Sequence record: NC_019505.1
DNA: 64,000 nt
Reading direction: 5' to 3' (one strand)
Source of the DNA: Escherichia phage wV7
Below, piece by piece: positions 3,965-6,600 of the stretch (positions are counted from its first letter, which is position 1; every line of letters begins with the position of its first letter). The position numbers were made by a program, and so were the translations under genes. The notes under the pieces were generated by a model. That model was not told the origin of the DNA. It did no database searches and saw only the letters and a program-made list of their open reading frames with translations.

Positions 3965-4438
3965 TTATTTGATTTGTTTAGCAGACCAAATGCGGTCTTT
4001 AATAATTTTTTGGATGTCTTCAACATACTCAAGAGAGTGAGCATGTGGATTATCTTTGAAACTATAAGCACGAGCTAGTTTTTGGCCTTCAGTTTTGATT
4101 ACTAAAAGCTCTTTAAGGATAGCTTCATATTTGGAGATAATTCCTTTAACAATATTTTTCTCTTGTGCGACTTTAGGATCTGCTTTAGGAGCAGGTTTAC
4201 CCGAAGCCTTTGCAAAAGCAGCGCCAGTAGCAACTAAACTTTTCCAGGCCATACTAACTGCATTTCCCGTAAATCCTTCCGCTTTCATGTCGCGTGCGAA
4301 CTGGAATCGCGATTCATCAGAAGCATCTTTATAAGAATATTTACCCGCTGCAATGGCTGCTTTTGCGACAGCTTGAATTTCGGTGCTAGATGCTTCATTT
4401 AACACCGCTTCATTTAAAAATTGAGTATATGATTTCAT
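3965..4438 (-). CDS. internal-protein-like head protein with capsid-targeting N-terminus
   Basis: N-terminus MKSYTQFLNEA resembles the T4 IPI/IPII/IPIII/Alt capsid targeting sequence, with L-x-E motifs typical of gp21 protease sites; preceded by a late promoter and flanked by hairpin terminators. Confidence 0.55.
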   Translation of the reverse strand: MKSYTQFLNEAVLNEASSTEIQAVAKAAIAAGKYSYKDASDESRFQFARDMKAEGFTGNAVSMAWKSLVATGAAFAKASGKPAPKADPKVAQEKNIVKGIISKYEAILKELLVIKTEGQKLARAYSFKDNPHAHSLEYVEDIQKIIKDRIWSAKQIK

Positions 4439-4478: not shown

Positions 4479-4486
4479 TATTTATA
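4479..4486 (-). promoter_or_regulatory. T4 late promoter -10 element TATAAATA (minus strand)
   Basis: Exact TATAAATA about 40 nt upstream of ATG at 4438. Confidence 0.5.
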
Positions 4487-4520
4487 CCAAAAAGCCCCAA
4501 CCTTTCGGTCGGGGCTAAGC
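4487..4520 (-). terminator. rho-independent terminator (minus strand)
   Basis: Stem GCCCCGACC/GGTTGGGGC followed by UUUUU on minus-strand RNA. Confidence 0.5.
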
Positions 4521-4825
4521 CTTGCGGCAACCTTGTCGGGGTTCCACCTGCTAAGGCAAGTGTTTGTACGAAACGCCGGGATTCGAACCCGGTTATTAAG
4601 CAGTTGACGCTACTCAATATTTTTAAAAGGCCATATCTCGACCATATCCGAACGTTCCGTCAAAAACGCTACTCGGCTTACGGCAAAGATATTTCCTCGA
4701 ATCGATAATTCGGTGCGCCGTTTCTACTGTGATGTAAGAGGGCATCAATAAACGCAAAGATTATTAACGCAATTCCTTACTCAGGGAACATCAGTCCGAC
4801 GACTTACCGGTAGCGACCCGGTTTC
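4521..4825 (-). ncRNA. candidate small stable RNA locus (ORF-free, GC-richer, tRNA-like T-arm)
   Basis: No ORF of 60 aa or more on either strand; minus-strand CCGGG-TTCGAAT-CCCGG T-arm-like stem-loop at about 4575-4591; lies between tRNA-proximal ORF and a terminator. Confidence 0.3.
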
Positions 4826-5176
4826 TTAATATTCTTTTAAAGCATCAATCTGTTTACGGCGTTCACGCCATAAATCAATTGCTTCATACGCGGATTCAAC
4901 ATTTCGAATTGGACGGCATTTATATAAAGATTTGTGATTTTGATATTGCGTAGATAACGGAATTTTATCTAAAAGGTCTTTACGTTCAAAGTATTCGTAA
5001 CCATCTAAGCCAAATGAACGATTTTTGAGAAATTGCCAATGACCAAATTCGTTTTGAATATAAATATAATCCGCATGTTGATAAAGTAAATTAATTTCAC
5101 GAAATGAGATATGTTTTTCATATTCATTGAAGTAAAATGTTAAATCATGAACTACTAAATAAACATTACCTTTCAT
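4826..5176 (-). CDS. hypothetical protein
   Basis: 116 aa ATG-start ORF immediately downstream (in transcription sense) of tRNA-Arg. Confidence 0.5.
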   Translation of the reverse strand: MKGNVYLVVHDLTFYFNEYEKHISFREINLLYQHADYIYIQNEFGHWQFLKNRSFGLDGYEYFERKDLLDKIPLSTQYQNHKSLYKCRPIRNVESAYEAIDLWRERRKQIDALKEY

Positions 5177-5194: not shown

Positions 5195-5270
5195 TGGTCG
5201 AGGCAGTAGGGATCGAACCTACGACCTAGGACTTAGAAGGTCCTTGCTCTTCCTTCTGAGCTATGCCCCG
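5195..5270 (-). tRNA. tRNA-Arg (anticodon UCU)
   Basis: Hand-folded cloverleaf: acceptor CGGGGCA/TGCCTCG, anticodon loop CUUCUAA, T-loop TTCGATC, CCA encoded. Confidence 0.85.
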
Positions 5271-5274
5271 TAAT

Positions 5275-5350
5275 TGGGGTGACCGATGGGAGTCGAACCC
5301 ATGACTACGAGAATCACAATCTCGAGTTCTACCAACTGAACTACGGTCAC
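5275..5350 (-). tRNA. tRNA-His (anticodon GUG)
   Basis: Cloverleaf: acceptor GTGACCG/CGGTCAC, discriminator C, anticodon loop TTGTGAT, T-loop TTCGACT, CCA encoded; no G-1 encoded. Confidence 0.75.
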
Positions 5351-5464
5351 ATTAATACCTACTCCAACAATCAAGATGTCTTCACACGAAATTAAGAGAA
5401 GAGTGATCAGTTCAACCCCTATAATCGCGTCAAGTAGATATTAATGTGACAGTTGTCACAAATT

Positions 5465-5539
5465 TGGCGGACGTGATAGGATTCGAACCTATAACCAATC
5501 GCTTAACAGGCGATCGCTCTGCCATTGAGCTACACATCC
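5465..5539 (-). tRNA. tRNA-Asn (anticodon GUU)
   Basis: Cloverleaf: acceptor GGATGTG/CACGTCC, D-stem GCTC/GAGC, anticodon stem ATCGC/GCGAT with loop CTGTTAA, T-loop TTCGAAT, CCA encoded. Confidence 0.8.
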
Positions 5540-5543
5540 AAAT

Positions 5544-5630
5544 TGGTGGGGAGTGGTGGAGTCGAACCACCCGAGTCGCAATGACAATGAATTTACAGTC
5601 CACACCGCTACCTCTACGGGATAACTCCCC
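5544..5630 (-). tRNA. tRNA-Tyr (anticodon GUA), class II long variable arm
   Basis: 87 nt; acceptor GGGGAGT/ACTCCCC; anticodon loop CUGUAAA as in bacterial tRNA-Tyr; variable-arm hairpin; D-arm could not be resolved cleanly by hand. Confidence 0.6.
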
Positions 5631-5642
5631 TAATTCATAATT

Positions 5643-5717
5643 TGGTGGCCCTGGGTGGAATTGAACCACCATCTGGCGATTATGAGTCGCTTGCTTGAAC
5701 CTTCCAGCTACAGGGCC
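5643..5717 (-). tRNA. tRNA with CAU anticodon (Met, or Ile if lysidine-modified)
   Basis: Cloverleaf: acceptor GGCCCTG/CAGGGCC, anticodon loop CTCATAA, T-loop TTCAATT, CCA encoded; occupies the position of the T4 tRNA-Ile gene. Confidence 0.75.
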
Positions 5718-5718
5718 T

Positions 5719-5794
5719 TGGTGCTGATTGACGGAATCGAACCGCCGACCTTCTCATTACAAGTGAGTTGCTCTACCTACTGAGCTAAATCAGC
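5719..5794 (-). tRNA. tRNA-Thr (anticodon UGU)
   Basis: Cloverleaf: acceptor GCTGATT/AATCAGC, anticodon loop CTTGTAA, T-loop TTCGATT, CCA encoded. Confidence 0.8.
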
Positions 5795-5799
5795 AAAAC

Positions 5800-5889
5800 T
5801 GGCGGAGGTGATAGGATTCGAACCTATGAATCGCCGGAGCGACTGCCGGTTTTCAAGACCGGTGCATTCAACCACTCTGCCACACCTCC
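5800..5889 (-). tRNA. tRNA-Ser (anticodon UGA), class II
   Basis: 90 nt; acceptor GGAGGTG/CACCTCC, anticodon stem CCGGT/ACCGG with loop CTTGAAA, long variable arm, T-loop TTCGAAT. Confidence 0.8.
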
Positions 5890-5891
5890 AG

Positions 5892-5965
5892 TCTCCATAC
5901 AAGGATTTGAACCTTGGACCTCCTGATCCCAAATCAGGCGCTCTACCAAACTGAGCTACACGGAG
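5892..5965 (-). tRNA. tRNA-Pro (anticodon UGG), 3' CCA not encoded
   Basis: Acceptor CTCCGTG/TATGGAG, anticodon stem CCTGA/TCAGG with loop TTTGGGA, T-loop TTCAAAT; 3' end abuts tRNA-Ser 5' end with CU instead of CCA. Confidence 0.8.
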
Positions 5966-5975
5966 TAAATTAAAT

Positions 5976-6049
<74 letters not shown>

Positions 6050-6054
6050 AAATT

Positions 6055-6141
6055 TGGTGCGAGAAGTGGGACTCGAACCCACAAGGAAATCATTCCGCAG
6101 CATTTTAAGTGCTGTGCCTTTACCAATTTGACCATTCTCGC
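6055..6141 (-). tRNA. tRNA-Leu (anticodon UAA), class II
   Basis: 87 nt; acceptor GCGAGAA/TTCTCGC, anticodon stem CAGCA/TGCTG with loop CTTAAAA, long variable arm, T-loop TTCGAGT. Confidence 0.8.
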
Positions 6142-6142
6142 G

Positions 6143-6215
6143 CTGGGAATAAAGGACTCGAACCTTTGCATCTAGCAGTCAAAGTGCTATGCCTTACCAA
6201 CTTGGCTAATTCCCA
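6143..6215 (-). tRNA. tRNA-Gln (anticodon UUG), 3' CCA not encoded
   Basis: Acceptor TGGGAAT/ATTCCCA, anticodon stem TAGCA/TGCTA with loop CTTTGAC, T-loop TTCGAGT; one nucleotide separates it from tRNA-Leu (dimeric precursor arrangement). Confidence 0.8.
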
Positions 6216-6312: not shown

Positions 6313-6600
6313 TTACCATTTATGATAATACATATTTACGATGCACTCAAGACCCAAAGGATTCTTGAAAATATCATATTCAAGAGGACCTTTTTCTGTT
6401 TCAATAAAGAAATCAAAATTTACTGTATTAAATTTACGGTCTTCCTTCACTAATTTAACCTGAGAAGATGAACGGTCAATGTAAACCTTTTCAACTTCAA
6501 AACATGTTAAAATGCCATAATCATCAATCAAGGCTTTAGCTGCTTCTTGATCATATTTATATCCATTTTCAATGGACGATACTTTAGCATAAAGAATCAT
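6313..6600 (-). CDS. hypothetical protein
   Basis: 95 aa ATG-start ORF, stop adjacent to upstream gene. Confidence 0.5.
   Translation of the reverse strand: MILYAKVSSIENGYKYDQEAAKALIDDYGILTCFEVEKVYIDRSSSQVKLVKEDRKFNTVNFDFFIETEKGPLEYDIFKNPLGLECIVNMYYHKW

What the first reader, a model, noticed from the sequence alone, without database searches (positions are those of the whole stretch)
4521..4825. ORF-free, GC-richer 300 bp segment with tRNA-like T-arm: candidate small stable RNA
Between the terminator at 4487-4520 and the ORF at 4826-5176 there is no ORF of 60 aa or more on either strand, and the base composition is visibly more GC-rich than the flanking AT-rich phage DNA. The minus strand contains CCGGG-TTCGAAT-CCCGG, a canonical T-arm, but I could not pair an acceptor stem, so it is not a standard tRNA. 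It may be a homolog of the T4 species 1/2 RNAs, a degenerate tRNA, or a structured leader.
Basis: partly seen in the sequence, partly recalled or inferred. Interest (0 to 1): 0.55.

Follow-up and report, generated by a model that had tools for sequence, protein, structure and literature searches.

The report
T4 species 1/2 stable RNAs (rnaC, rnaD)
The ORF-free, GC-rich stretch encodes this phage's copies of two small stable RNAs known from phage T4 since the 1970s (rnaD and the tRNA-like rnaC), so the finding is real but already known, although what these RNAs do is still unknown.

Summary
4521-4825 has no ORF of 60 aa or more, is GC-rich (0.47 against 0.36 for the window) and carries a perfect T arm on the minus strand. 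The window is a Tequatrovirus (T4-like phage).

The interval aligns to T4's annotated rnaD (species 2 RNA, 114/119 identical; window 4712-4829, minus) and rnaC (species 1 RNA, 137/139; window 4567-4705, minus). A roughly 50-nt structured trailer and the terminator of the tRNA operon (4488-4516) follow.

Its function is still described as unknown in papers from 2010, 2022 and 2025.

Comparative analysis added four points:
- rnaC occurs in at least ten Tevenvirinae genera, usually between tRNA genes.
- Covariation supports an acceptor-type stem (two conserved U·U pairs), a T arm and two hairpins.
- The two 6-nt hairpin loops (UUGACG and CGUCAA) are exact complements. They change together in Klebsiella Jiaodaviruses (UUGCAG and CUGCAA), which supports a loop-loop "kissing" contact.
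- The Jiaodavirus copies have a fully paired acceptor stem and an encoded CCA.

rnaD also has a covariation-supported fold. Neither RNA has an Rfam family.

The parts
4712..4829 (-). rnaD (species 2 RNA) orthologue, about 118 nt. It has a 5' hairpin and a long irregular hairpin closed by a 7-bp helix (4797-4803 with 4713-4720).
   Evidence: 114/119 identical to T4 rnaD (NC_000866 71053-71171). The homology starts at 4826, and T4's annotated first base corresponds to 4829. The fold is supported by 9 pairs with compensatory change against 3.6 in shuffles.
4806..4822 (-). rnaD 5' hairpin, ACCGG-GUCGCUA-CCGGU. The loop is invariant in 12 sequences.
   Evidence: The closing pair varies among A-U, G-U and G-C.
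4706..4711 (-). 6-nt spacer GAAUUA between rnaD and rnaC. It is the 5' leader of rnaC that would be removed by processing.
   Evidence: Alignment to the T4 annotation. The same AAUUA or AACAA leader precedes rnaC in other genera.
4567..4705 (-). rnaC (species 1 RNA) orthologue, 139 nt, tRNA-like.
   Evidence: 137/139 identical to T4 rnaC (70908-71046). Covariance model R1 scores 159 bits. MFE is -50.2 kcal/mol, z = -4.55.
4698..4704 (-). rnaC acceptor-type stem, 5' strand CGAUUCG.
   Evidence: Pairs with 4569-4575. The third pair is A-U or G-C, and the two U·U positions become U-A and A-U in Jiaodavirus.
4569..4575 (-). rnaC acceptor-type stem, 3' strand CGUUUCG. It is followed by U-ACA rather than N-CCA.
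4628..4697 (-). rnaC hairpin 1, a long irregular hairpin in the D-arm position.
   Evidence: 20 of its 23 pairs show compensatory change in 23 sequences.
4658..4663 (-). Loop 1 of rnaC, UUGACG.
   Evidence: Invariant in 20 sequences and UUGCAG in Jiaodavirus. It is the exact complement of loop 2 in every sequence.
4594..4619 (-). rnaC hairpin 2, a 10-bp stem one nucleotide before the T arm.
   Evidence: 9 of 10 pairs show compensatory change.
4604..4609 (-). Loop 2 of rnaC, CGUCAA.
   Evidence: Invariant in 20 sequences and CUGCAA in Jiaodavirus.
4576..4592 (-). rnaC T arm, CCGGG-UUCGAAU-CCCGG.
   Evidence: The middle pair of the stem is G-C, U-A, C-G, A-U or U-G in relatives.
4517..4566 (-). 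3' trailer with three small hairpins. It is probably removed during 3' maturation of rnaC.
   Evidence: Trailer plus terminator (4488-4566) folds with z = -4.0. It is conserved in Tequatro-, Mosig- and Dhakavirus. In JS98, VR5 and MX01 it follows rnaD directly.
4488..4516 (-). Intrinsic terminator of the tRNA/rnaD/rnaC transcription unit (10-bp stem, GAAA loop, U run).
   Evidence: It is annotated as a terminator in Aplg8 and GiZh.
5195..6215 (-). Upstream tRNA gene cluster (11 tRNAs) on the same strand. This is the operon of which rnaD and rnaC are the last genes.
   Evidence: ARAGORN and Rfam. The order is the same as in T4.

Best explanation
The interval encodes, on the minus strand, the orthologues of two small stable RNAs of phage T4. 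These are rnaD (species 2) and, 6 nt downstream, rnaC (species 1). A structured trailer and the intrinsic terminator that closes the tRNA operon follow.

Shown here:
- Near-identity to the annotated T4 genes.
- The same position at the 3' end of the tRNA cluster.
- Covariation-supported folds for both RNAs.

rnaC is a tRNA mimic. A 7-bp acceptor-type stem (two conserved U·U pairs) lies directly next to a canonical T arm, the arrangement that stacks coaxially in tRNA. Two hairpins take the places of the D arm and the anticodon arm. Their 6-nt loops, UUGACG and CGUCAA, are exact complements and change together in one lineage, so they most likely pair with each other as a kissing loop that locks the body of the RNA.

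Inferred from the structure and from the T4 tRNA-processing literature:
- The RNAs are transcribed as the tail of the polycistronic tRNA precursor.
- The acceptor/T-arm minihelix lets host RNase P cut at the 5' end of rnaC.
- The same cut, followed by 3' trimming, releases rnaD.
- The trailer is trimmed back to the acceptor stem.

The function is not established. My best guess, with low confidence, is that rnaC is an accessory tRNA decoy or sponge for a host or phage factor that handles tRNA acceptor ends. On this guess the role would depend on the host and would not be essential.
For: Identity:
- Alignment to T4 and to records that annotate rnaC and rnaD.
- 137/139 and 114/119 identical bases.
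- About 800 phage records carry the segment.

rnaC structure:
- MFE z = -4.55.
- A MAFFT alignment of 15 distinct sequences gives 21 pairs with compensatory change, against 7.6 in shuffles and 3-7 in slid controls.
- 23 sequences give 34 such pairs against 16.5.

Loop-loop pairing:
- It is 100% complementary in 23 of 23 sequences.
- Two of its six pairs are swapped on both sides in Jiaodavirus, a variant present in 138 records.
- Complementarity stops exactly at the loop edges.

rnaD structure: 9 compensatory pairs against 3.6.

Modularity:
- rnaC sits between different tRNAs in other genera.
- It is precisely present or absent within Dhakavirus.

Not coding: no conserved frame.

Expression in T4: RNAC and RNAD were classified as late RNAs by RNA-seq and validated with an RNAC Northern probe (PMC9697503).

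Processing precedent: T4 tRNA precursors are cut by RNase P, and some T4 tRNAs need CCA addition (PMC11143913).
Against: - There are no transcript data for this phage, so the ends are transferred from the T4 annotation.
- In this phage a 116-aa ORF lies between tRNA-Arg and rnaD. The 5' end of rnaD therefore cannot be made as in T4, where it starts 1 nt after tRNA-Arg.
- The loop-loop covariation comes from a single lineage, so it is probably one evolutionary event. The 23-sequence alignment was fitted to the covariance model.
- An intramolecular kiss needs hairpin 1 to bend, and I could not model this.
- The T loop is not conserved in Winklervirus and in some Kanagawavirus copies (UGCAUUC, UGCAUGC). 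This weakens a strict tRNA-mimic reading.
- The decoy function has no direct evidence at all.
Confidence: 0.9

Rival explanations
1. A decaying tRNA pseudogene, or two of them, with no function of its own. The T arm would be a relic and the rest neutral sequence.
For: The T arm and acceptor-like stem sit next to a tRNA cluster, and no anticodon arm is present. The T loop is altered in Kc304 and Q7622. rnaC is missing in some Dhakaviruses.
Against: The full length is conserved in at least ten genera. There are 34 pairs with compensatory change, and both loops are invariant in 20 of 23 distinct sequences and change together in the other three. A neutral relic would not keep helices through double substitutions. 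T4 makes stable, abundant transcripts (PMC9697503).
Confidence: 0.03
2. A cis-acting structured untranslated region. It would be either a 3' stabiliser or processing signal for the upstream ORF and tRNA transcript, or a leader for the downstream gene at 3965-4438.
For: It lies between an ORF and a terminator. The trailer and terminator are clearly cis elements. A late-promoter motif, TATAAATA, follows the terminator at 4479-4486(-).
Against: rnaC keeps its sequence and fold while its neighbours change: Phe|rnaC|Trp in EcS1, Trp|rnaC|Gly in KaAlpha and Melville, and Pro|rnaC in Jiaodavirus. The terminator separates it from the downstream gene. In T4 the RNAs accumulate as discrete species.
Confidence: 0.05
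3. It encodes small proteins. The 44-50 aa ORFs that many GenBank records annotate here as 'hypothetical protein' would be real.
For: Short ORFs exist. Many records carry CDS features over this segment. One antisense frame is stop-free across rnaC in this window.
Against: The open frame differs between homologues (antisense frame 0, antisense frame 2, sense frame 0, sense frame 2). T4, GiZh, UFV01 and KaAlpha have stops in every frame. Lengths of 141, 142 and 143 nt shift the frame. The substitutions are of the paired, RNA-helix type.
Confidence: 0.01

Closest known systems
Phage T4 rnaC (species 1 RNA; misc_RNA T4s001, NC_000866 70908-71046)
   Same: 137/139 identical. Same strand and same place: after rnaD and before the operon terminator. 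Same predicted fold.
   Different: Two substitutions. One turns a U-A pair into a U·G wobble in hairpin 2, and the other turns a G·U pair into G-C in hairpin 1. Nothing else differs.
Phage T4 rnaD (species 2 RNA; T4s002, 71053-71171)
   Same: 114/119 identical. Same 6-nt spacing to rnaC and same fold.
   Different: In T4 it starts 1 nt after tRNA-Arg. Here, as in RB69, a 116-aa ORF (phrog_3355) lies between them and its stop codon abuts rnaD. The way the 5' end is formed must therefore differ.
Canonical tRNA (Rfam RF00005), and the tRNA-like domain of tmRNA
   Same: A 7-bp acceptor-type stem directly next to a 5-bp T stem with a UUCGAAU loop. It sits inside tRNA operons behind short AAUUA-type spacers. 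The Jiaodavirus copies even have a perfect acceptor stem and an encoded U-CCA end.
   Different: It has no D arm, no anticodon arm and no anticodon. There are two U·U pairs in the acceptor stem, and UACA replaces NCCA in this window. There are no tmRNA pseudoknots or tag ORF. ARAGORN and Rfam do not call it.
   Same: Two hairpin loops whose full 6 nt are Watson-Crick complementary and covary.
   Different: There is no sequence or structural homology. It is unknown whether the contact is within one molecule or between molecules.

Membership tests
T4 rnaC (species 1 RNA) | Full-length sequence homology to the T4 gene | tested here: met
   137/139 identical at window 4567-4705(-). 159 bits with model R1.
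T4 rnaC (species 1 RNA) | Location at the distal end of the tRNA operon, after rnaD and before the terminator | tested here: met
T4 rnaC (species 1 RNA) | Accumulates as a stable RNA of about 140 nt in infected cells | not testable with these tools
   Shown for T4 only, by Northern blot in PMC9697503. There are no data for this phage.
T4 rnaD (species 2 RNA) | Full-length sequence homology and adjacency to rnaC | tested here: met
   114/119 identical at 4712-4826(-), with a 6-nt spacer to rnaC as in T4.
T4 rnaD (species 2 RNA) | Starts immediately after tRNA-Arg, as in T4 | tested here: not met
   The ORF at 4826-5176 intervenes. RB69 has the same arrangement. This is a feature of context in T4, not of the RNA itself.
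Canonical tRNA (RF00005) | Cloverleaf with D arm, anticodon arm and anticodon | tested here: not met
   ARAGORN finds none in 4521-4829. No Rfam tRNA hit; the only match is tRNA-Sec at 16.6 bits, E = 3.6.
Canonical tRNA (RF00005) | T arm (5-bp stem with a UUCGAAU-type loop) adjoining a 7-bp acceptor stem | tested here: met
   4576-4592, and 4569-4575 with 4698-4704. The acceptor stem has two U·U pairs.
Canonical tRNA (RF00005) | 3'-terminal NCCA | tested here: not met
   The window has U-ACA-A. The Jiaodavirus homologues do encode U-CCA.
tmRNA | tRNA-like domain plus pseudoknots and a tag reading frame, detectable by ARAGORN or Rfam | tested here: not met
Any curated Rfam family | Score at or above a family's gathering threshold | tested here: not met
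   There are no gathering-level hits in 4488-4829. All hits in the E-value scan are weak, at E of 0.76 or more. rnaC and rnaD therefore have no Rfam family.

The most novel reading that the evidence does not exclude
rnaC (species 1 RNA) would be a widespread, tRNA-derived RNA of Tevenvirinae. Its two arms would be locked, or joined between molecules, by a conserved and covarying 6-bp loop-loop contact.

One branch, the Klebsiella Jiaodaviruses, still has a perfect acceptor stem and an encoded CCA. That would point to a role as a mimic of tRNA acceptor ends, acting as a decoy or sponge for a host tRNA-processing, tRNA-modifying or tRNA-targeting defence enzyme.

I found none of this in the searchable literature. 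A 2025 report of a convergent adaptive SNP in rnaD on a semi-permissive host (PMC12685909) hints that the locus matters for host range.
Probability: 0.3. Interest if true: 0.55.

Novelty: already known. Interest (0 to 1): 0.28.

Why it matters
As a scan result it is a correct rediscovery. The element is annotated in the T4 reference genome, so it adds nothing new as a kind of element.

It still has some value for three reasons:
- Most of the roughly 800 related GenBank records leave it unannotated or cover it with spurious 'hypothetical protein' ORFs, and there is no Rfam family. A covariance model such as the one built here would fix the annotation.
- The function of these RNAs has been open for about 50 years. 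Papers from 2010, 2022 and 2025 still say it is unknown.
- The covarying loop-loop contact, the conserved U·U pairs in the acceptor stem and the CCA-bearing Jiaodavirus variant give concrete mutants and binding experiments to try.

Tried and rejected
- Rfam at gathering and at E-value thresholds gave nothing meaningful. The tRNA-Sec match at 16.6 bits is only the T arm.
- ARAGORN found no tRNA or tmRNA in the interval.
- IMG/VR and metagenome pattern scans for more rnaC copies returned mostly chance 14-mer hits and only a few real extra copies.
- The genome-contig scan for the two loops plus the T loop gave 19 hits in bacterial genomes. None was confirmed by the covariance model.
- Erwinia phage Cronus has no rnaC in the 7 kb searched.
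- Literature searches for a function, or for a described loop-loop contact, found nothing. Miller et al. 2003 is not held.
- I considered a kink-turn in the conserved internal loop of rnaD (GACUGA/GAAA). I rejected it because the tandem G·A geometry does not fit.
- I considered that the UUGACG in the tRNA-His leader (5428-5433) pairs with rnaC loop 2. I rejected it because it lies in a stem and does not change with the Jiaodavirus loops.
- I considered complementarity of loop 1 to 16S rRNA, recalled from memory. Five nucleotides is too short to mean anything.
- The small-protein reading was rejected.
- I could not find a late promoter directly upstream of rnaD that would explain the 'late' classification in T4. 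The only minus-strand TATAAATA motifs nearby are at 6554-6561 and 4479-4486.
- My recollection that RNase III cuts species 1 RNA in vitro, and that a dimeric species 2 plus species 1 precursor is an RNase P substrate, could not be checked in the held library.

Full report
**Observation.** The region 4521-4825 is as described.
- Only short ORFs of 34-50 aa overlap it.
- Its GC content is 0.472, against 0.36 for the window and 0.29-0.38 for the flanking ORFs. That puts it in the top 1% of 305-nt windows and level with the tRNA cluster.
- The minus strand carries CCGGG-TTCGAAT-CCCGG at 4576-4592.
- A terminator hairpin with a U run lies at 4488-4516(-).
- Eleven tRNA genes lie just upstream on the same strand, at 5195-6215.

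**Identity.**
- blastn places the segment in about 800 phage records, nearly all Tequatrovirus and relatives. It is 100% identical to E. coli O157 typing phage 7.
- Phages Aplg8 and GiZh annotate the matching sequence as rnaD and rnaC.
- The T4 reference annotates rnaD (species 2 RNA, 71053-71171) and rnaC (species 1 RNA, 70908-71046) right after tRNA-Arg.
- The window aligns to these end to end. rnaC is 4567-4705(-), 137/139 identical. rnaD is 4712-4826/4829(-), 114/119 identical.
- After rnaC come a trailer of about 50 nt with three small hairpins (4517-4566) and the terminator.

**What is known about function.** The searchable literature still calls the function unknown:
- A 2010 review says the biological roles of RNAC and RNAD are unknown (PMC3014915).
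- A 2022 omics paper classes them as late RNAs of unknown function and validates this by Northern blot with an RNAC probe (PMC9697503).
- A 2025 evolution study found a single convergent SNP in rnaD when a T4-like phage adapted to a semi-permissive host (PMC12685909).
- T4 tRNAs are cut from multimeric precursors by RNase P, and some need CCA addition (review PMC11143913).

**Anatomy of rnaC.**
- The minimum-energy fold (z = -4.55) has four parts: a 7-bp acceptor-type stem directly next to the T arm, a long irregular hairpin 1 in the D-arm position, a 10-bp hairpin 2 one nucleotide before the T arm, and an A/U-rich linker between the hairpins.
- I collected homologues from Tequatro-, Mosig-, Dhaka-, Kagamiyama-, Karam-, Winkler-, Kanagawa-, Gelderland- and Jiaodavirus.
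- In the other genera rnaC sits between tRNA genes: Phe|rnaC|Trp in EcS1, Trp|rnaC|Gly in KaAlpha and Melville, and after tRNA-Pro in Jiaodavirus.
- A MAFFT alignment of 15 distinct sequences gives 21 pairs with compensatory change, against 7.6±1.8 in shuffles and 3-7 in slid controls.
- With 23 sequences, aligned to the covariance model, the figure is 34 against 16.5.
- The two central acceptor positions are U·U in 20 sequences and U-A and A-U in Jiaodavirus.
- The 3' flank GUACAA is invariant outside Jiaodavirus. No CCA is encoded here.
- No reading frame is conserved.

**Loop-loop contact.**
- Loop 1 (UUGACG, 4658-4663) and loop 2 (CGUCAA, 4604-4609) are exact reverse complements. Both are invariant while the stems beneath them covary. 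Complementarity stops at the loop edges.
- A full-sensitivity search with the covariance model found a divergent copy in Klebsiella phage Roth20 (76.9 bits).
- Its loops are UUGCAG and CUGCAA, again exact complements. Two of the six pairs have changed on both sides.
- This variant is present in 138 Klebsiella and Raoultella phage records, so it is not a sequencing error.
- This is real but single-lineage support for a kissing contact. I cannot say whether the contact is within one molecule, which would need hairpin 1 to bend, or between molecules.
- The same Jiaodavirus copies have a fully Watson-Crick acceptor stem and an encoded U-CCA end.

**Anatomy of rnaD.**
- It has a 5' hairpin with an invariant GUCGCUA loop, then a long irregular hairpin closed by a 7-bp helix near the 3' end.
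- Twelve distinct sequences from Tequatro-, Mosig- and Dhakavirus give 9 pairs with compensatory change, against 3.6 in shuffles and 1-3 in slid controls.

**Modularity.**
- In Dhakaviruses JS98, VR5 and MX01, rnaD is followed directly by the trailer and rnaC is precisely absent.
- Dhakavirus LHE83 has rnaC at the same junction.

**Mechanism.**
- Shown: the identity, the operon position and the folds.
- Inferred: transcription as the tail of the tRNA precursor, an RNase P cut at the rnaC acceptor/T-arm minihelix (which also frees the 3' side of rnaD), and exonucleolytic trimming of the trailer.
- In this phage, as in RB69, a 116-aa ORF (phrog_3355) sits between tRNA-Arg and rnaD. The 5' end of rnaD must therefore be made differently from T4, and how is unknown.
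- Function remains open. I favour, with low confidence, an accessory decoy for factors that handle tRNA acceptor ends.

**Limits.**
- There are no transcript data for this phage.
- The loop covariation rests on one lineage.
- No Rfam family exists.
- No copies were found in bacterial genomes.

**Verdict.** The element is already known. The modest added value is an improved structural model.

Noticed in passing
window 5351-5464 (minus strand), between tRNA-Asn and tRNA-His: The 114-nt spacer just upstream of tRNA-His folds stably (z = -4.36) and is conserved in 354 phage records. These include Klebsiella, Enterobacter and Salmonella T4-like phages, and the element is always directly 5' of tRNA-His. 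A 14-bp closing stem ends at the tRNA's first base and shows some compensatory changes. It is not in T4, which has no tRNA-His, and has no Rfam hit. It is a candidate unannotated structured leader or small RNA.
   Followed up: partly
window 4826-5176 (minus strand): A 116-aa ORF (phrog_3355, unknown function, no Pfam hit, GC 0.29) lies between tRNA-Arg and rnaD. Its stop codon directly abuts the conserved start of rnaD. T4 and GiZh lack it; an ORF at the same position is annotated in RB69 (ORF150c) and reads through the aligned segment in Aplg8, homology not tested. It looks like an inserted accessory gene.
   Followed up: partly
L175:2752-2896(-) (Klebsiella phage Roth20), L177, L178, L179 (Jiaodavirus): The Jiaodavirus rnaC homologue has a fully Watson-Crick acceptor stem and an encoded U-CCA 3' end. 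The T4-type copies have U·U pairs and UACA instead. In principle it could be a substrate for aminoacylation or for enzymes that act on the CCA end.
   Followed up: partly
L005 (JS98), L140 (VR5), L144 (MX01) against L141 (LHE83): Within the genus Dhakavirus, rnaC is precisely present or absent as a module of about 146 nt between rnaD and the trailer. It behaves like an independently gained or lost tRNA-like gene.
   Followed up: yes
L011:534-675 (Kosakonia phage Kc304), L012:534-675 (Enterobacter phage Q7622), L138: In these rnaC copies the T loop is UGCAUUC or UGCAUGC instead of UUCGAAU. Everything else is conserved, so the canonical T-loop motif is not strictly required.
   Followed up: no
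Related GenBank records (e.g. PQ516281 CDS0060/61, PQ657793 XNO93301.1, AR1 ar1_137-139): Many records annotate short 'hypothetical protein' CDSs over rnaC and rnaD, or leave them blank. These are probably spurious ORF calls over non-coding RNA genes.
   Followed up: partly
L145:305-990 (Escherichia phage pEC-M719-6WT.2): This phage has an rnaD with a quite different central hairpin. About 570 nt with an annotated ORF are inserted between rnaD and the conserved trailer, and no rnaC was detected by the model.
   Followed up: no
window 4520-4543 against 4488-4516 (minus strand): The second trailer hairpin (AACC-CCGACAA-GGUU) repeats the CCCCGAC...AAGGUU core of the terminator. It looks like a degenerate tandem copy of the terminator.
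   Followed up: no
window 4479-4486 and 6554-6561 (minus strand): There are exact T4 late-promoter motifs (TATAAATA) immediately after the terminator, ahead of the ORF at 3965-4438, and inside the ORF upstream of the tRNA cluster. The motif is enriched in the window: 23 copies against 9 expected.
   Followed up: no
window 5544-5630 (minus strand): tRNA-Tyr is called by ARAGORN but does not appear among the Rfam gathering-level tRNA hits (10 against 11).
   Followed up: no
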